A DNA stretch of 64,000 nt from Escherichia phage mistaenkt (MN850587.1), one strand, 5' to 3'; positions 2,454 to 64,000 are shown, counted from the first letter of the stretch. Translations and numbers: made by a program. The notes: generated by a model from the letters alone, not told the origin.

Positions 2454-4688
2454 TTAAACTCCGCAACCTTCACAGTAAGCGTCTTGGAGTGCTGACTTAC
2501 CAACACCAATACGACTGTTAAGGTAGTACATAGTTTTCATCCCAACTGAGTTAGCATAAATCATGTACTTCAAAGCTTGCTCTAATGATACCTTTTTCGA
2601 TTTTGAATAGTCAACATAGAAATCTGAAGAGATAGCTTGACCAGTGAATTTTTGAACAATTGCATAGCAATCAATCATATCAAAGGTGTCAATATCCCAA
2701 GCAATTTCATAGACATACTTCAACTCTTCGTAATCTGGAACGATAAATAAAACGTTACCAGTTGCTGACTTCTTGGTTAAGATGAAGTCACGAATTGGGT
2801 ACAAACCATTTGTCGTATTAGTTGCCAGTGAAGAACTCTCATTAGGCATGTAAGCCTCAAGTACAGAGTTTCTGATACCACCATTTGCTTTAATACGGTC
2901 TGCTAAGTCATCCCAATCATAACGAAGTTTTGCATCGTGTTTTGTATCAATCTTCCTGTTAGCTGTCTTCGGAGGAACCCAACCTTCAGGATACTTGGTG
3001 AACTTCATATATTCAGGTACACCACGCTCTTTTGCAAGTCTTAGTGAAGCCTCATGCAGATAGTAAGAGTGCATCTCTGCAAGTTCATGTAGCTTCGTTT
3101 TACCTGCTCTTGAAGAATAGTTCACGTAGTTCTTCGCAAGGTAGTGAGCCACATTCGTAAGGCCAATCCCAACAGAACGACGTTTCTGAACGTGGTTACG
3201 CATTGACGGATACGGATAGTCCATAAGGTCAATAACGGAGTCAACCATTGCAAGAGCATAATAAGCAACGTCAGCGTATTCATCTTCTGTGATTCTCCCT
3301 GCTACCAGACTAGCTAAGAAGCAAAGAGCAACTTCACCATCTTCTTTAGGTGCTGTGTAACTGTAAAGGTCACGTTCATCTTCAAACCCGTAAACTGGCA
3401 GTATAATTTCCATGCACAAGTTAGACATTTTCAAAGCTTCTTTAAACGGTGTGTGTGTGTTCGCATTGTTCGTAAAGAACGGATACACACGACCTGTGGC
3501 ATAACGTTGCTGGATGAACAGCTTGGCAACTTCACGAGCCTTAACACGTTTATGCTTAACACCTGAATGCACTGCGTGACCGACTGCCATAGCAAACTCA
3601 TCAGCAGATGCTGTGTAGAACATGTCATAAAGCTTTGGAGCGTCCTTGTAAGAGAACAGCAACCAATCTGTGTCATACTGTACACACTGCCAGAAATAGT
3701 CATTTGCACCAAATGAATAGTCCATCTCATTAATACGCTTCGAAGGAACCGTTGTAGGATGCTTCAAACGCAGTAAATCTTCAATCTGCGGGTCTAGGGC
3801 AGTATAGAAGTTGTTAGCTGAACCACCACGACTCTTCTGCTTATTGGCCTCTACAGCAGCACGTACAAGCTTGTAGTAAGGAAGCTTACCCATGTGTTCA
3901 ATGGTGTTTTGACGAATACCATCACCAATTGTACGGGTCTCCATAAGCATACCAATACCAGCTTGCTTGGTGGTCATATCATAAGCTACCTTAGTAGCAA
4001 TGCCAAGAGACTCAGCAGTGTCATTAGCCTTGATTAAGCAGCATGACGCATAACCTGACTTAGTAGCACGTAAACCATTCAGATAAGGCGTAGGGGCGTT
4101 AATCTTCAGGTCAGACAGGTAAGTGTACAGCTTGATAACATCTTCCAGTCTACGGTGCTTAGGTTGTCTCTCAAAGGCTTTCATAGCCATACCCATAAAC
4201 ATAAATTGTGGGGATTCAAACAGACGACCTGACTTGATATCTCGGATGCCATACTTGTCACGGAACTGTTTCAGTACTGCATAACCGTAAGAGATATCTT
4301 TTGAGTGAACAATGTGACCTTGTAAATAGTCAATCTCTTGTTCGGTGTAATCCATGTGTTCCCACAAACCCATTTGCTCCATCTTCATAACGAAGTTGAA
4401 CAGTTGAGGAACTTTTGTGAAACCACCAAAGGCTTCTTTGTAGATGATACCAAGGAGTAATCGACCAGCCATATCAGAGTACTCTTGAGTCTGCTTATCA
4501 ATACAAACGTCAATCATAGCTTGGTGCATCTCTTTGGTAGAGCAACCTTCATAAACACGCTTCATGGCTTCCATAGTTACTTCTGACCAAATGATTCCTC
4601 GTTTGTCAGCCCATGAAGCCCATTTGTTTAAACGTTCTGGTTCGAATGGCACGATTGTACCGTCAGATTTGCGAATGGTCTTAATCAT
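2454..4688 (-). CDS. nrdA: Ribonucleotide reductase class Ia large (alpha) subunit
   Basis: 744 aa; N-terminal ATP-cone (MIKTIRKSDGTIVPFEPERLNKW), overall RNR large-subunit character, operon with nrdB and glutaredoxin. Confidence 0.9.
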   Translation of the reverse strand: MIKTIRKSDGTIVPFEPERLNKWASWADKRGIIWSEVTMEAMKRVYEGCSTKEMHQAMIDVCIDKQTQEYSDMAGRLLLGIIYKEAFGGFTKVPQLFNFVMKMEQMGLWEHMDYTEQEIDYLQGHIVHSKDISYGYAVLKQFRDKYGIRDIKSGRLFESPQFMFMGMAMKAFERQPKHRRLEDVIKLYTYLSDLKINAPTPYLNGLRATKSGYASCCLIKANDTAESLGIATKVAYDMTTKQAGIGMLMETRTIGDGIRQNTIEHMGKLPYYKLVRAAVEANKQKSRGGSANNFYTALDPQIEDLLRLKHPTTVPSKRINEMDYSFGANDYFWQCVQYDTDWLLFSYKDAPKLYDMFYTASADEFAMAVGHAVHSGVKHKRVKAREVAKLFIQQRYATGRVYPFFTNNANTHTPFKEALKMSNLCMEIILPVYGFEDERDLYSYTAPKEDGEVALCFLASLVAGRITEDEYADVAYYALAMVDSVIDLMDYPYPSMRNHVQKRRSVGIGLTNVAHYLAKNYVNYSSRAGKTKLHELAEMHSYYLHEASLRLAKERGVPEYMKFTKYPEGWVPPKTANRKIDTKHDAKLRYDWDDLADRIKANGGIRNSVLEAYMPNESSSLATNTTNGLYPIRDFILTKKSATGNVLFIVPDYEELKYVYEIAWDIDTFDMIDCYAIVQKFTGQAISSDFYVDYSKSKKVSLEQALKYMIYANSVGMKTMYYLNSRIGVGKSALQDAYCEGCGV

Positions 4689-20004: not shown

Positions 20005-20208
20005 ATGAAGAAGAATCGTTGCAAGAAGAACTATGGAGAAGTGCTTGACGATGAAGGTCATGTCATCTTCCGAGTTTACTGTGCAGATGACTCTGAAGTA
20101 GATAAAGCACTTGATGACTATATCAACGGTACTCGTGAAAACGTCAGAGCAACAAACATAGATTCATTGATTGACACTTCCAGAAAACGGAGGAAGAAAG
20201 ATGAATGA
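20005..20208 (+). CDS. Hypothetical small protein (67 aa)
   Basis: ORF track only. Confidence 0.35.
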   Translation: MKKNRCKKNYGEVLDDEGHVIFRVYCADDSEVDKALDDYINGTRENVRATNIDSLIDTSRKRRKKDE

Positions 20209-20500
20209 AGTCTTTGACCCTTACGCCCCACAAGATAAGTGGGAAGCTGATAGAGAGTATGAGATGGAAAGTTATATCTGCCCAATGGATGTAGACGAAA
20301 TGAGAGAGTTCGTTGCATTCCGTTTTGAAAAAGAAATTGAGAAAAGAAAACTTTCTCAGGCACAAGTTGCAAAGATTTGTGATATCTCTCAAAGTCGTGT
20401 TTCCAACATAGTCAATGGTACTGGAAAGATTACCCTTGAATACATGTTGAAAGCTTGTGAAAAACTTGGTGTTAACTTCAACTTAAGGCTGTCAGATTAA
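20201..20500 (+). CDS. Helix-turn-helix (XRE-like) DNA-binding protein
   Basis: LSQAQVAKICDISQSRVSNIVNG is a classic HTH; start trimmed to ATG at 20201 (GGAAGAAAG upstream). Confidence 0.55.
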   Translation: MNEVFDPYAPQDKWEADREYEMESYICPMDVDEMREFVAFRFEKEIEKRKLSQAQVAKICDISQSRVSNIVNGTGKITLEYMLKACEKLGVNFNLRLSD

Positions 20501-61587: not shown

Positions 61588-62055
61588 ATGAAACTTAAAG
61601 AAATCGTTCGTAAAGCAATGCTGGACAACTCCACTAAAGATGAGATGTACAAAGAAATCTGTGATAAGCTGAACTGCTCAAGACATGCTGCAAAGGTTCT
61701 TGTCTCAAGTTTTATCTGGGAGTGTTCAGAGGCTTACATGAACTATGTAGCTTTTGAGAGTTCTAACTTGATAGGTGACATAAAGATTGGTACAGAGTTT
61801 AAAGAACCTGAAATGAAACCTTCAGTGAAAGTTGGTAACCTTTACCAGATTAAGGATTTCCAGACTGGACAGATTGTTGCAAAAGGTGAAGTGGAGTCTC
61901 TATACAGTGATGGTACATACCTCATTAAAATTTTTGAGTATGCCAAGTCATATGCTCATCTTTGTGGAATCAGATTCCTTGTGACTAAAGAAGATTTAGT
62001 TATGTCGTCTGGAGATAAAGCTTATTCTATACCACATTATGAAATTGTACGATGA
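61588..62055 (+). CDS. Hypothetical protein (155 aa)
   Basis: ORF track; GGTAGCAAAA upstream. Confidence 0.45.
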   Translation: MKLKEIVRKAMLDNSTKDEMYKEICDKLNCSRHAAKVLVSSFIWECSEAYMNYVAFESSNLIGDIKIGTEFKEPEMKPSVKVGNLYQIKDFQTGQIVAKGEVESLYSDGTYLIKIFEYAKSYAHLCGIRFLVTKEDLVMSSGDKAYSIPHYEIVR

Positions 62056-62735
62056 AGAGTCTTATGGGACACCTTCGCAAGATGAATTGGACGAACTTGA
62101 AAGATACGGTTCTCCTTCGGAAGAAGAGAAGGATTCAATCTGCTGAGTGGTCAAAAGTTACTAAGAAATGTTTTCAGGATTTGATAGATATGGAAAAACA
62201 ATTTGAGTTAGAGAGAAAGTACTTGGTACTGAGTTTGGGAGATATTGATAACTATCTTTCACCGGAATGCAGAGACCAGCTTCAACAAATTGTAATGTCA
62301 CTGAGACATTCAAGAGAGTTTGTAGATGGTAAAGAGCCACTAAAAGGTATCTTTGTTAAGGAGTCTTACCCGTTCTATAAAGATACTTTGCAGAAACTTG
62401 AAATGTACGTTAAACAGCAGAACCGTAAAGAGTTCACTATGGTTTCTCTTGGTGGACAACAAATGCTTGTGATGGAAGATATCAACCCTAAACGAGTTAA
62501 CAGAGGTATCTGTATCAAGGTCACAGGTAAAGAAGAGTTTATTGATGCTACGTACCTGAGCCACATCTTTGAAGGTGGAAGTGCAGTATTGAACCTGAAT
62601 GAGTATCACATCAGTTCACATCCAATTAAGGGTGACCAGATAATGCTTCAGGTAAGAGAACGTCACAATGGGTTCACACACTTCTTCCAGACGACTAAGA
62701 CCTCATTGAGAGCAATGCTCAAAGAAGTGATGTAA
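62052..62735 (+). CDS. Hypothetical protein (227 aa)
   Basis: ORF track; last coding gene before the repeat-rich region. Confidence 0.45.
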   Translation: MKSLMGHLRKMNWTNLKDTVLLRKKRRIQSAEWSKVTKKCFQDLIDMEKQFELERKYLVLSLGDIDNYLSPECRDQLQQIVMSLRHSREFVDGKEPLKGIFVKESYPFYKDTLQKLEMYVKQQNRKEFTMVSLGGQQMLVMEDINPKRVNRGICIKVTGKEEFIDATYLSHIFEGGSAVLNLNEYHISSHPIKGDQIMLQVRERHNGFTHFFQTTKTSLRAMLKEVM

Positions 62736-62743
62736 AACTATAC

Positions 62744-62791
62744 AGCCCCTTTATATGGATTCGATAGAGTCTATCTCATAGGGGCTTTTTA
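62744..62791 (+). terminator. Terminator-like structure AGCCCCT...AGGGGCT plus T5 with nested GATAGAG/CTATC hairpin
   Basis: 7-bp outer stem with long loop and T-run; read directly. Confidence 0.4.
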
Positions 62792-62869
62792 TTGAGTAAA
62801 ATAATTTTTATAAAATTTGGATTCACTCCGTTCATCTTGGGTCACCATATCATGTGATAAAATATCTAC

Positions 62870-63160
62870 CCTTCTTAACATCCTACTTAATCTTACTCTC
62901 TATATAGTTATATAGTACTATATAGTATCTTAGTCCCTTAACAGTGAGTCTCTATAGCTCTCTGTATAACCCTTCTATCTAGCCCTTCAAGAAGGTCTTT
63001 AAATAGCCCTCTAAGCAATCCTCTTCCAAACCTATATAATCACCTTAACCACCTCTTCATATCCCCTTAGAAGCCCCTATACCCATCTTAATCTCTATGT
63101 CAGAGATAGTACCCTCTATAGGGTGTTCACTAGGTTCTACTAATCCTCTATATAGACTGT
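62870..63160. repeat. Cluster of short TATAG-core direct repeats (TATATAGT, CTCTATAG, TCTATAGGGTG) in non-coding DNA
   Basis: Read directly: ctctatatagttatatagtactatatagtatc, gtctctatagctctctgtataac, ccctctatagggtg, ctctatatagactg. Confidence 0.6.
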
Positions 63161-63379
63161 TTTAGCTAACTAAACAGGTATCACCTTCTAAGGCTTATCC
63201 TACAAGGTCTAACACGGTATTAACAAGGTATCTAATAAGCCTGTATTTACCTGTTTTATACAGAATACTATATAGATATTTATGCAATTCTTAAAATTTT
63301 TATAAAATAGAACTGTCAAGTCATTTTTTAGGTGTTATGAAGGAACTCAAAAATATCTGTCTAGGATGTATATCTGCTT

Positions 63380-63575
63380 GGTAGCCCTTAACAGCCCTGT
63401 AACATCCCCTTTGCAAAATCTTAAAATATCATTAACAATTTCTTAACAGATACTACATCCTCTTAACATCTCTTCAGAGTTCTTAACAGTTCCTTAACAG
63501 AACTAACAAGGGTGTAACAAGTTCTTAACAGTTGCTACATAGACTTTACAGAATCTTAACAGATTGCTAACAAGA
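63380..63575. repeat. Array of at least 9 copies of CTTAACA(G) / CTAACAAG direct repeats
   Basis: Read directly: tcttaacaga, tcttaacatc, tcttaacagt, tccttaacag, aactaacaag, gtgtaacaag, ttcttaacag, atcttaacag, tgctaacaag. Confidence 0.7.
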
Positions 63576-63840
63576 GCTAAGTAGTTAAATGTTAAGAGTT
63601 ATTTTGTTAAGATAATTAACAAGCTACTAACAAGTCTTTAAAGCTTTTAACATACTATTAACATGGTCACTATCTCTCTGTCTATAGTTCCCTGTCCTTC
63701 TCAGTGATTCTCTAAACATACCTCTTAAAAGCCCTGTATAGCTCTTTATAGCCCCTTCTAAGGTTCTCACTAGTATCTATAGCCCAACTGACTGTATAGC
63801 TCTTTATATCCCTTTACAGGGGCTTATATAGGGACTCCAA

Positions 63841-63912
63841 AGATTCTAACAAGGTTGTAACATGGTCTTAACAAGAATTTAACAAGGTGCTAACAAGTCT
63901 CTAACAAGCATA
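63841..63912. repeat. Iteron-like array: six TAACAAG-type repeats at about 11-bp spacing
   Basis: Read directly: ctaacaagg ttgtaacatgg tcttaacaag aatttaacaagg tgctaacaag tctctaacaag, roughly one repeat per helical turn. Confidence 0.7.
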
Positions 63913-63963
63913 ACTATGTAGGAGTTGTTAAGAATTTGTTAAGAAAATGTTAAGGGGGCTAGC

Positions 63964-64000
63964 TTTTACGTAACTTTATAGCCCCTTTTACGTAACTTTA
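63964..64000. repeat. Direct repeat TTTACGTAACTTTA x2 at the window edge
   Basis: cttttacgtaactttatagccccttttacgtaacttta read directly. Confidence 0.5.

What the first reader, a model, noticed from the sequence alone, without database searches (positions are those of the whole stretch)
62870..64000. 1.1-kb non-coding region packed with iterons (CTTAACAG / TAACAAG arrays and TATAG repeats)
Beyond the last gene there is a coding-free stretch with three repeat families: TATAG-core repeats (62870-63160), at least nine CTTAACA(G)/CTAACAAG copies (63380-63575), and six TAACAAG-type repeats at about 11-bp periodicity (63841-63912), ending with a TTTACGTAACTTTA duplication at the window edge. Helical-turn periodic iterons are characteristic of replication origins or binding arrays for an initiator or partition-like protein. 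In linear phage genomes such regions also occur near packaging sites and terminal repeats. No cognate binding protein is identifiable in the window.
Basis: seen in the sequence. Interest (0 to 1): 0.65.

Follow-up and report, generated by a model that had tools for sequence, protein, structure and literature searches.

The report
Phage genome-end repeat with phased motifs
The repeat-packed non-coding stretch is the physical end of a Felix O1-like phage genome: a 580-bp direct terminal repeat, already known for this phage group, filled with a short motif repeated about once per DNA helical turn, and most likely a docking array for the DNA-packaging machinery rather than a replication origin.

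Summary
TAACA occurs 27 times in 580 bp (2 expected). TATAG occurs 15 times in the 589-bp left flank (0.8 expected). Thirteen of 21 neighbouring TAACA gaps are exactly 11 bp.

The window is an Ounavirinae (Felix O1-like, Suspvirus-like) phage. The region lies between two convergent gene blocks, at the Felix O1 ORF23/24 junction.

The TAACA arrays fill window 63380-63959. By homology this is the phage's short direct terminal repeat (DTR).
- Two relatives' GenBank records carry exact 592- and 579-bp end repeats with these edges.
- Five records start or end at the same nucleotides.
- The same edge words give 613 bp in Ro111lw, matching its published PhageTerm value, and 614 bp in UAB_Phi87, where 608 bp was measured experimentally.

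The edge words are identical in 13 phages. Motif columns are more conserved than spacers. Indels come in 11-bp units. Erwinia phages keep the TCTTAACA arrays in a DTR that mostly cannot be aligned.

Best reading: a T7-type genome end whose phased motifs bind a still-unknown packaging or processing protein. No small terminase was found. The replication-origin and partition readings are not supported. The DTR is known; its internal architecture seems undescribed. Interest is modest.

The parts
62052..62735 (+). Last gene of the + strand block (homologue of Felix O1 ORF24; phrog_4330, function unknown)
   Evidence: ORF list; PHROG hit 4e-103 and no Pfam hit; synteny with SUSP2, CHB7 and Felix O1.
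62744..62792 (+). Terminator hairpin (AGCCCCT...AGGGGCT followed by TTTTT) closing the + strand block. It contains the GGATTCGATAGAGTC element.
   Evidence: DNA fold -8.1 kcal/mol, z = -2.7. A terminator is annotated at the homologous place in Michonne.
62793..63379 (.). Left flank of the terminal repeat: degenerate units of about 10-12 bp rich in CTATATAG/CTCTATAG (TATAG family), a few TAACA copies (62876, 62939, 63210, 63221), and an AT-rich palindromic word AATTTTTATAAAAT at both ends (62803 and 63295)
   Evidence: TATAG/CTATA 15 against 0.78 expected; motif map; Fourier peak at 11.7 bp, above all 200 controls.
63369..63393 (+). Left edge word TATATCTGCTT|GGTAGCCCTTAACA. The terminal repeat starts at 63380.
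   Evidence: Identical in the window and 12 other Suspvirus, Felixounavirus and Mooglevirus genomes. It is the first base of the ECP2307 record, the last of CRP22, and within 1 nt of the end of EcSzw_1. The surrounding 126 bp (63367-63492) is the only part that aligns to Erwinia phages.
63380..63959 (.). Inferred direct terminal repeat (DTR), 580 bp. The window holds one copy.
   Evidence: Exact end repeats of 592 bp (ECP2307), 579 bp (CRP22) and 444 bp (Erwinia phage M7) at the homologous place. The edge words give 613 bp in Ro111lw, equal to the published PhageTerm value, and 614 bp in UAB_Phi87, against 608 bp measured by Bal31 and run-off sequencing (PMC6454146, PMC4837284).
63389..63572 (+). 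Array A1: 12 direct copies of (T)CTTAACA(A/G)(G), with gaps of 11, 33, 11, 20, 20, 11, 9, 11, 11, 31 and 11 bp
   Evidence: The same gap series occurs in Felix O1.
63590..63622 (.). Two inverted copies (TGTTAAG at 63590 and 63605). The second forms the perfect dyad TTGTTAAGATAATTAACAA (63604-63622) with the first copy of array A2.
   Evidence: The block GTTATTTTGTTAAGATAATTAACAAG is invariant in 10 of 10 aligned phages.
63617..63663 (+). Array A2: four direct TAACA copies (63617, 63628, 63648, 63659)
63680..63835 (.). DTR centre: 10-bp units of the TATAG type (CTGTATAGCTCTTTATAGCCCC, twice, 58 bp apart) and no TAACA
   Evidence: families D4, D6, D8.
63847..63908 (+). Array A3: six direct (C/T)TAACA(A/T)G copies at exactly 11-bp spacing
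   Evidence: (D3).
63926..63954 (-). Array A4: three inverted copies (TTGTTAAG, TTGTTAAG, ATGTTAAG) at 11-bp spacing, abutting the right edge
   Evidence: conserved in the aligned relatives.
63946..63963 (+). Right edge word AATGTTAAGGGGGC|TAGC. The terminal repeat ends at 63959.
   Evidence: Identical or nearly identical in all genomes checked. The records of H12, CRP22, HP1 and Ro111lw start at this base, and ECP2307 ends at it.
63960..64000 (+). Start of the right flank: 22-bp tandem units CTTTTACGTAACTTTA(TAGCCC), two copies before the window ends. In relatives the flank runs about 0.5 kb further to the stop of the first - strand gene.
   Evidence: D13. CHB7 has three copies and a 1.73-kb intergenic region. 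TAGC(A/T)TTTACGTAACT is conserved in 10 of 10 aligned phages.

Best explanation
What it is: window 62736-64000 is most of the roughly 1.7-kb non-coding junction that holds the physical ends of a Felix O1-like (Ounavirinae) phage genome. Window 63380-63959 is the short, exact, non-permuted direct terminal repeat (DTR, 580 bp). Positions 62793-63379 and 63960 onward are its two flanks, each bounded by the 3' end of a gene block transcribed towards the DTR.

Shown, by homology to relatives:
- the position and edges of the DTR;
- the invariant edge words;
- the selective conservation of the TCTTAACA(A/G)G units, their phasing of about one helical turn and their orientation. Direct copies run inward from the left edge and three inverted copies run inward from the right edge, so both virion DNA ends begin with G..CCC(CC)TTAACA.

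Inferred mechanism:
1. Replication and recombination produce head-to-tail concatemers with one DTR per junction, as in T7.
2. A phage protein, still unidentified because no small terminase is recognisable, coats one face of the DTR through the phased TAACA units and marks the junction for the large terminase.
3. The conserved, roughly mirror-symmetric edge words are cut on opposite strands.
4. The DTR is duplicated by strand-displacement synthesis, so every packaged genome carries it at both ends.

I put the identity as the DTR region at about 0.9. I put the packaging or junction-processing role of the arrays at about 0.5.
For: Identity as the DTR:
- Exact end repeats in ECP2307 (592 bp) and CRP22 (579 bp) have edges that map to 63380 and 63959.
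- The Erwinia phage M7 record has an exact 444-bp repeat at the homologous place.
- The records of H12 (for which PhageTerm reported a DTR, PMC11737134), HP1, CRP22 and Ro111lw start at 63959. EcSzw_1 ends at 63380.
- The edge words predict 613 bp in Ro111lw, equal to the published 613 bp (PMC6454146).
- They predict 614 bp in UAB_Phi87, against 608 bp measured by Bal31 and run-off sequencing (PMC4837284).
- Felix O1 itself has the same words 569 bp apart in its ORF23/24 gap.

Arrays under selection:
- The edge words are identical in every enterobacterial-phage genome checked, although the region as a whole is only 78-88% identical.
- Motif columns are 0.96 conserved against 0.865 for spacers (P 3e-12). 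Most indels are whole 11-bp or 22-23-bp units.
- Every DTR has 19-22 direct and 3-5 inverted copies.
- M7 and phiEa21-4 keep 13-14 direct and 7 inverted copies of the same TCTTAACA unit, in the same layout, in a DTR of which only the first ~110 bp aligns to the window.
- The phase is 10.4 bp.

T7 analogue, checked directly: ACCTAAAG heptamers at 13-bp spacing lie beside the 160-bp terminal repeat.

No small terminase: neither Pharokka annotation of a relative nor PHROG/Pfam searches find one. TerL is of the T4-like Terminase_6 type.
Against: - No reads or virion DNA for this particular phage were available. The DTR is inferred from relatives, and the window holds only one copy.
- No binding protein was identified. 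The 66-aa protein upstream of terL is a helical hairpin with no informative fold match.
- The edge symmetry is imperfect. The cut lies 8 nt from TTAACA at the left edge and 6 nt at the right. The M7 record's edges are offset by 2-3 nt relative to the aligned enterobacterial edges.
- The function of the analogous T7 arrays is itself unproven, so the analogy does not establish function.
- A DTR can host additional functions, so an origin or another role is not excluded.
Confidence: 0.6

Rival explanations
1. Iteron-type replication origin: the phased TAACA repeats bind a phage or host initiator that melts an adjacent AT-rich stretch and starts DNA replication. It could coexist with the DTR.
For: There are many same-orientation repeats at helical-turn spacing. 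The region is the most AT-rich of the window, at 33-35% GC. An AT-rich patch lies at 63290-63335, just left of the arrays.
Against: - No DnaA box or IHF site occurs in 62736-64000.
- The two neighbouring genes tested have no recognisable function, so no initiator is apparent. The primase/helicase and DNA polymerase genes lie about 35-40 kb away, at a divergent junction.
- The region lies where two transcription units converge, the opposite of the usual origin layout.
- The arrays begin and end at the DTR edges, and inverted copies abut the right edge. That fits end recognition better than origin melting.
Confidence: 0.12
2. Binding array for a function at the DNA ends other than packaging. Examples are protection of the incoming linear ends from host exonucleases, control of DNA ejection (like the repeat-rich injection-stop region in the T5 terminal repeat), or promotion of DTR-DTR pairing to form concatemers.
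For: The arrays sit at both physical ends and face inward from each terminus. Conservation indicates protein binding but does not say which protein. [quoted passage not shown]
Against: No direct evidence supports it. Felix O1-like phages are not reported to inject in two steps. No Chi sites occur in the region. The T5 comparison rests on my recollection and was not tested here.
Confidence: 0.12
3. Neutral satellite-like DNA: replication slippage in a gene-free junction generated the repeats, and only the edge words are functional.
For: Copy number changes by whole 11-bp units between relatives. The region diverges faster (78-88% identity) than the neighbouring structural genes (95-97%).
Against: Motif positions are significantly better conserved than spacers (P 3e-12). 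The gap series is identical in the window and Felix O1. The same unit and layout persist in Erwinia phages whose DTR is otherwise mostly unalignable. The dyad at 63604-63622 is invariant.
Confidence: 0.06
4. Plasmid-like partition centromere, or a transcription element (promoter cluster or non-coding RNA).
For: Eleven-bp iterons recall plasmid centromeres such as R1 parC (my recollection, not tested). A few weak sigma-70-like matches exist.
Against: This is a virulent phage. No partition genes are annotated in the relatives' stretches viewed, though I ran no dedicated search for them. Promoter-like sites number 6 against 4.8 expected, and there are no terminator-like sites inside the region. 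No Rfam family matches in the window or in CHB7. The neighbouring genes are transcribed towards the region, not away from it.
Confidence: 0.03

Closest known systems
Direct terminal repeats of Felix O1-like phages (UAB_Phi87 608 bp, vB_EcoM-Ro111lw 613 bp, Felix O1 'short terminal repeats', Erwinia phage M7 444 bp)
   Same: It is the homologous locus. It lies in the same gene gap (Felix O1 ORF23/24), has the same edge words, a length in the same range (569-614 bp) and the same motif arrays (PMC4837284, PMC6454146, PMC3185647).
   Different: The published accounts I could read give only the length and existence of the DTR. None describes the phased TCTTAACA arrays, the conserved edge words or the flank repeat families. 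For this window's own phage the ends are inferred, not measured.
Phage T7 terminal repetition with its neighbouring short-repeat arrays (SRL/SRR of Dunn and Studier 1983, named from my own knowledge; sequence checked here)
   Same: T7 also has a short, exact, non-permuted DTR at a concatemer junction, associated with many copies of a 7-8-bp unit in one orientation at regular spacing. ACCTAAAG lies at 13-bp spacing at T7 175-340, with copies inside the 160-bp repeat and before the right repeat.
   Different: The unit sequence is different and the spacing is 13 bp, not 11. In T7 the arrays lie mostly beside the repeat; here they fill it. T7 has a small terminase (gp18) and its own RNA polymerase, and early promoters follow the left array. 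Here both flanks are gene 3' ends. There is no sequence or demonstrated protein homology.
Small-terminase recognition arrays (lambda cosB R sites, SPP1/P22 pac regions)
   Same: The concept is the same: several short binding sites, some inverted, next to the terminase cut site, assembling an oligomeric DNA-binding protein on bent or wrapped DNA.
   Different: Those systems have an identified small terminase and far fewer sites, and they produce cohesive or headful ends rather than exact DTRs. Here there are 24-27 sites and no known binding protein. This comparison is from established knowledge and was not tested here.
Iteron replication origins (lambda ori, P1 oriR, R6K and pSC101-type plasmids)
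   Same: They also have multiple direct repeats in helical phase within an AT-rich non-coding region.
   Different: Those origins have a cognate initiator gene nearby, DnaA or IHF sites and an unwinding element. None of these was found here, and the arrays coincide with the terminal repeat.

Membership tests
Short exact direct terminal repeat (T7-type, non-permuted genome ends) | The same sequence is present at both ends of the linear virion genome | tested here: met
   Met in relatives, not in this phage's own DNA. The first 592 bp of ECP2307 equal its last 592 bp, and likewise for 579 bp in CRP22 and 444 bp in M7, all with 0 mismatches. The edges map to window 63380 and 63959. The window contains only one copy, so it cannot be tested on the window itself.
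Short exact direct terminal repeat (T7-type, non-permuted genome ends) | Fixed termini at a defined nucleotide, reproducible between isolates | tested here: met
   Independent records start or end at the same aligned base: H12, HP1, CRP22, Ro111lw and ECP2307 at the right edge; ECP2307, CRP22 and EcSzw_1 at the left edge. The predicted 613 bp equals the published PhageTerm 613 bp. The predicted 614 bp compares with 608 bp measured by Bal31 and run-off sequencing (PMC4837284).
Short exact direct terminal repeat (T7-type, non-permuted genome ends) | Twofold read coverage over the repeat and read-start pile-ups at its edges in this phage's own sequencing data | not testable with these tools
   No reads are available for the window's source.
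Short exact direct terminal repeat (T7-type, non-permuted genome ends) | Large terminase belonging to a DTR-generating clade | not tested
   The window's TerL (45372-46988, - strand) has Terminase_6N and 6C domains. PMC4837284 reports that Felix O1-like TerL proteins form their own DTR cluster. I built no tree.
Iteron-type replication origin | Multiple direct repeats in helical phase | tested here: met
   There are 22 same-strand copies, 13 of 21 gaps are 11 bp, and the Fourier peak is at 10.4 bp.
Iteron-type replication origin | Host-factor sites (DnaA boxes, IHF) together with an unwinding element | tested here: not met
   There is no TTWTNCACA and no WATCAANNNNTTR in 62736-64000. An AT-rich patch lies outside the arrays at 63290-63335.
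Iteron-type replication origin | Cognate initiator gene next to the iterons | tested here: inconclusive
   The two upstream genes have only unknown-function PHROG hits and no Pfam hit. The downstream small genes in relatives are annotated as hypothetical. Replication genes lie far away at a divergent junction.
Iteron-type replication origin | Origin activity (initiation of DNA synthesis) | not testable with these tools
   This needs marker-frequency analysis or plasmid replication assays.
T7-like short-repeat arrays at the concatemer junction | Many copies of a 7-8-bp unit, one orientation, regular spacing, in or next to the terminal repeat | tested here: met
   See the window arrays, and the T7 control. 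This is a resemblance of architecture only: unit, spacing and placement differ, and there is no homology.
Plasmid partition centromere | Cognate centromere-binding protein and NTPase genes | not tested
   I ran no dedicated search. None is annotated in the whole SUSP2 genome or in 44 kb of H12, and these are virulent phages.

The most novel reading that the evidence does not exclude
The phased TCTTAACA lattice and the mirror-like edge words may be the recognition system of a terminase that works without a conventional small subunit. In this reading an unidentified Ounavirinae protein, or the TerL N-terminal region itself, polymerises along one face of the 0.6-kb repeat and positions two opposite-strand nicks. 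This would be a junction-recognition mode not described for myoviruses, and perhaps one shared with unrelated large phages: an IMG/VR 169-kb contig carries a similar array and the same GGGGGCTAGCTTT word.
Probability: 0.3. Interest if true: 0.5.

Novelty: new member of a known kind. Interest (0 to 1): 0.3.

Why it matters
Felix O1-like phages are widely used for Salmonella and E. coli typing, biocontrol and therapy. How they recognise and cut their concatemers is still unknown, and no small terminase has been found.

Pinning the DTR to the nucleotide helps in four ways:
- It corrects many GenBank records that are opened arbitrarily or that annotate spurious small genes in this region.
- It tells genome engineers which 1.7 kb must be kept intact.
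- It defines invariant edge words that can be used to orient new assemblies.
- It gives a concrete DNA bait, the phased TCTTAACA lattice, for finding the missing recognition protein.

It does not reveal a new kind of element. The DTR of this group is published, and phased repeats at short DTRs are known from T7.

Tried and rejected
1. Rfam scans of the window region and of the complete junction in CHB7 found nothing meaningful.
2. The sigma-70 promoter and terminator scan showed no excess: 6 promoter-like sites against 4.8 expected.
3. Single-strand folding of both DTR edges showed no special hairpins. Only the gene-end terminator and the small dyad at 63604-63622 fold.
4. The search for a small terminase or binding protein failed.
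   - PHROG and Pfam searches of the 66-aa gene upstream of terL, and of the two genes next to the region, gave unknown-function hits or none.
   - Homologues of the 66-aa protein exist only in close relatives.
   - Its AlphaFold model (pLDDT 84) is a helix-loop-helix hairpin with no PDB match better than E = 5.
   - The Cro/C1-type HTH protein at 20201-20500 is real (PF01381), but nothing links it to the arrays.
5. The PC79-13 'repeat_region' of 127 bp at both record ends looks like an assembler overlap and not a true DTR. I did not use it as evidence.
6. The UAB_Phi87 GenBank record is not opened at its termini, so I located the edge words inside it instead.
7. A scan of IMG/VR for three TTAACA units at 11-bp spacing stopped at its 120-locus limit. 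Most hits were single chance matches. Dense arrays were Ounavirinae, plus one 169-kb contig.
8. BME3, a myovirus of another subfamily (Stephanstirmvirinae) with a published 342-bp DTR, has no TTAACA array. The motif is therefore not general to myovirus DTRs.
9. Literature searches found DTR lengths for the group but no description of the arrays. One search meant to retrieve T7 packaging-signal (pacB) papers mostly matched 'PacBio'.

Full report
**The observation.** The stretch after the last + strand gene (stop at 62735) has no ORF longer than 47 aa.
- TAACA/TGTTA occurs 27 times in 63380-63959, against 2.0 expected from the window-wide density (binomial P 5e-22). In 5000 shuffles the mean was 2.3 and the maximum 10.
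- TATAG/CTATA occurs 15 times in 62791-63379, against 0.78 expected.
- The six copies at 63847-63902 are exactly 11 bp apart.
- Overall, 13 of 21 neighbouring same-strand gaps are 11 bp. The rest are mostly 9, 20, 31 or 33 bp, so the long-range phase is 10.4 bp. Fourier power is 8.9, against a maximum of 6.1 in 200 coding pieces of equal length.
- No other place in the 64-kb window has such a cluster.
- The TTTACGTAAC duplication at the window edge is exact.

**Where we are.** The window is a Felix O1-like myovirus (Ounavirinae). Its closest relatives are Suspvirus records: 95-97% identity over the structural genes, but only 82-88% in this region.
- In every relative the region is a 1.6-1.7-kb gap between two gene blocks that converge on it. 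Terminators are annotated on both sides in Michonne.
- It is the ORF23/ORF24 gap of Felix O1.
- The window ends about 0.5 kb before the first gene of the opposite block.

**What it is.** Several GenBank records begin or end inside this gap at the same nucleotides.
- Two independent records carry exact repeats at both ends: ECP2307 (592 bp) and CRP22 (579 bp), each with no mismatches. Their edges correspond to window 63380 (GGTAGCCCTTAACA...) and 63959 (...AATGTTAAGGGGGC).
- H12, HP1, CRP22 and Ro111lw start at the right edge. EcSzw_1 ends at the left edge.
- The Erwinia phage M7 record has an exact 444-bp end repeat at the homologous place.
- The literature confirms that this phage group has short direct terminal repeats. 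The values are 608 bp in UAB_Phi87 by Bal31 digestion and run-off sequencing (PMC4837284), 613 bp in Ro111lw by PhageTerm (PMC6454146), and 'short terminal repeats' inferred for Felix O1 (PMC3185647).
- The two edge words I derived are 613 bp apart in Ro111lw, equal to the published value. They are 614 bp apart in UAB_Phi87 and 569 bp apart in Felix O1.

I therefore take window 63380-63959 to be the 580-bp direct terminal repeat (DTR) of this phage. The TAACA arrays are the DTR itself. The TATAG family makes up its left flank and centre. The TTTACGTAAC units start its right flank. This is inferred by homology, because no reads of this phage were available.

**Evidence that the repeats are functional.**
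- The edge words TATATCTGCTT|GGTAGCCCTTAACA and AATGTTAAGGGGGC|TAGC are identical, or nearly so, in all Suspvirus, Felixounavirus and Mooglevirus genomes examined, while the region as a whole is 78-88% identical.
- In a ten-genome alignment the TAACA columns are 0.96 conserved against 0.865 for the spacers (Mann-Whitney P 3e-12). Length differences come mostly as whole 11-bp or 22-23-bp units.
- Each DTR holds 19-22 direct and 3-5 inverted copies.
- The gap series is the same in the window and in Felix O1.
- The Erwinia phages align with the window only over 63367-63492, around the left edge. Yet their DTR has 13-14 direct and 7 inverted copies of the same TCTTAACA unit in the same layout.
- A small dyad, TTGTTAAGATAATTAACAA (63604-63622), lies in a block that is invariant in the ten aligned phages.

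**How it probably works.** Direct copies run inward from the left edge and three inverted copies run inward from the right edge. As a result, both ends of the virion DNA begin, 5' to 3', with G..CCC(CC)TTAACA.

This rough mirror symmetry is what one expects if one nuclease specificity nicks opposite strands at the two edges of the single DTR in a concatemer junction, followed by strand-displacement synthesis that duplicates the repeat. That is the classical model for T7-type ends (established knowledge, not shown here). The symmetry is imperfect: the cut lies 8 nt from TTAACA at the left edge and 6 nt at the right, and the M7 edges are offset by 2-3 nt.

The 10.4-bp phase puts all units on one face of the helix, which suits cooperative binding or wrapping by an oligomeric protein. 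I propose that the arrays are the recognition lattice for the packaging or junction-processing machinery.

The protein is unknown.
- No small terminase is annotated or detectable.
- The 66-aa gene just upstream of terL is confined to the subfamily. It models as a helical hairpin with no informative structural match.

**Rivals.**
- Replication origin. There are no DnaA or IHF sites and no recognisable initiator among the neighbouring genes tested. The region sits at a convergent junction, far from the replication genes. The arrays respect the DTR edges. An origin is not excluded as a second function.
- Another end-specific role, such as end protection, ejection control or DTR pairing. This is possible, but there is no evidence for it.
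- Neutral slippage DNA. The conservation pattern contradicts this.
- Promoters, terminators or RNA genes. There is no excess of promoter or terminator matches and no Rfam match.

**Comparison with what is known.**
- The locus is homologous to the published DTRs of Felix O1-like phages, so the element itself is known.
- What I could not find described is its internal architecture (literature).
- The nearest mechanistic analogue is T7. I confirmed on the T7 sequence that ACCTAAAG heptamers at 13-bp spacing lie beside the 160-bp terminal repeat, with a few copies inside it. The unit, spacing and placement differ, and there is no homology.
- BME3, a myovirus from another subfamily with a 342-bp DTR, has no TTAACA array.

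**Verdict.** The origin/partition interpretation is not supported. This is a new, well-resolved member of a known kind of element, of modest interest. Its main value is an exact map of the ends and a defined DNA bait for finding the missing recognition protein.

Noticed in passing
whole window 1-64000; also L005+L006 (entire SUSP2 genome), L021, L002, L016, L017: GATC is completely absent: 0 sites against 209 +/- 15 expected in the window. It is also absent from every Ounavirinae stretch fetched, including the Erwinia phages. Many 6-bp palindromes are missing too (CTGCAG 0 vs 23, ATGCAT 0 vs 16, CAGCTG 0 vs 15, GAATTC 0 vs 9). This suggests strong subfamily-wide avoidance of Dam/MboI-type and other restriction sites.
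   Followed up: partly
L075 7230-7560 (IMG/VR contig IMGVR_UViG_3300021399_000003, 169 kb): This phage contig has no BLAST match in GenBank phages. It carries an 11-bp-phased TTAACA array followed by inverted TGTTAAG copies. It also has the 13-nt word GGGGGCTAGCTTT, identical to the right DTR edge of the window. The next gene is sigma-factor-like. It may be a distant user of the same end-recognition signal.
   Followed up: partly
relatives: warpig and SUSP2 DTR (alignment); CHB7 L020 about 3070-3095; also L107: A 22-23-bp palindromic mini-insert, (C)TAGGGATTGGTAACAATACCAAT, sits at different positions in different genomes. It looks like a tiny mobile or hairpin-forming insertion. It is absent from the window's DTR.
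   Followed up: no
window 62755-62790; CHB7 L020 2843-2877 and 3170-3200: A roughly 35-bp element, GGATTCGATAGAGTC(C/T)...ATAGGGG, occurs three times in the junction: inside the terminator after the last + gene, about 100 bp right of the DTR, and just before the terminator of the opposite gene block.
   Followed up: no
window 62803-62816 and 63295-63308: The 14-nt AT-only palindromic word AATTTTTATAAAAT occurs at both ends of the left flank. The second copy is conserved in relatives (seen in L112 and L107).
   Followed up: no
window 46995-47195 (- strand), directly upstream of terL (45372-46988): A 66-aa protein conserved in and restricted to the subfamily (phrog_4397, function unknown). It is predicted to be a long helix plus a short helix. 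It sits where T7-like phages encode the small terminase, but nothing else supports that role.
   Followed up: partly
GenBank records of relatives over window 62736-64000 (e.g. P219, pEC-M719-6WT.1, ESh19, H12, UAB_Phi87): Many records annotate one to seven small 'hypothetical protein' genes inside the DTR and its flanks. Frame-breaking 1-nt indels and motif-level conservation in the alignment suggest these are spurious calls.
   Followed up: partly
OR687644.2 (PC79-13) positions 1-127 and 86760-86886: The annotated 127-bp 'repeat_region' at both record ends lies inside the true DTR (about window 63523). It looks like an assembler k-mer overlap, not the biological terminal repeat.
   Followed up: partly
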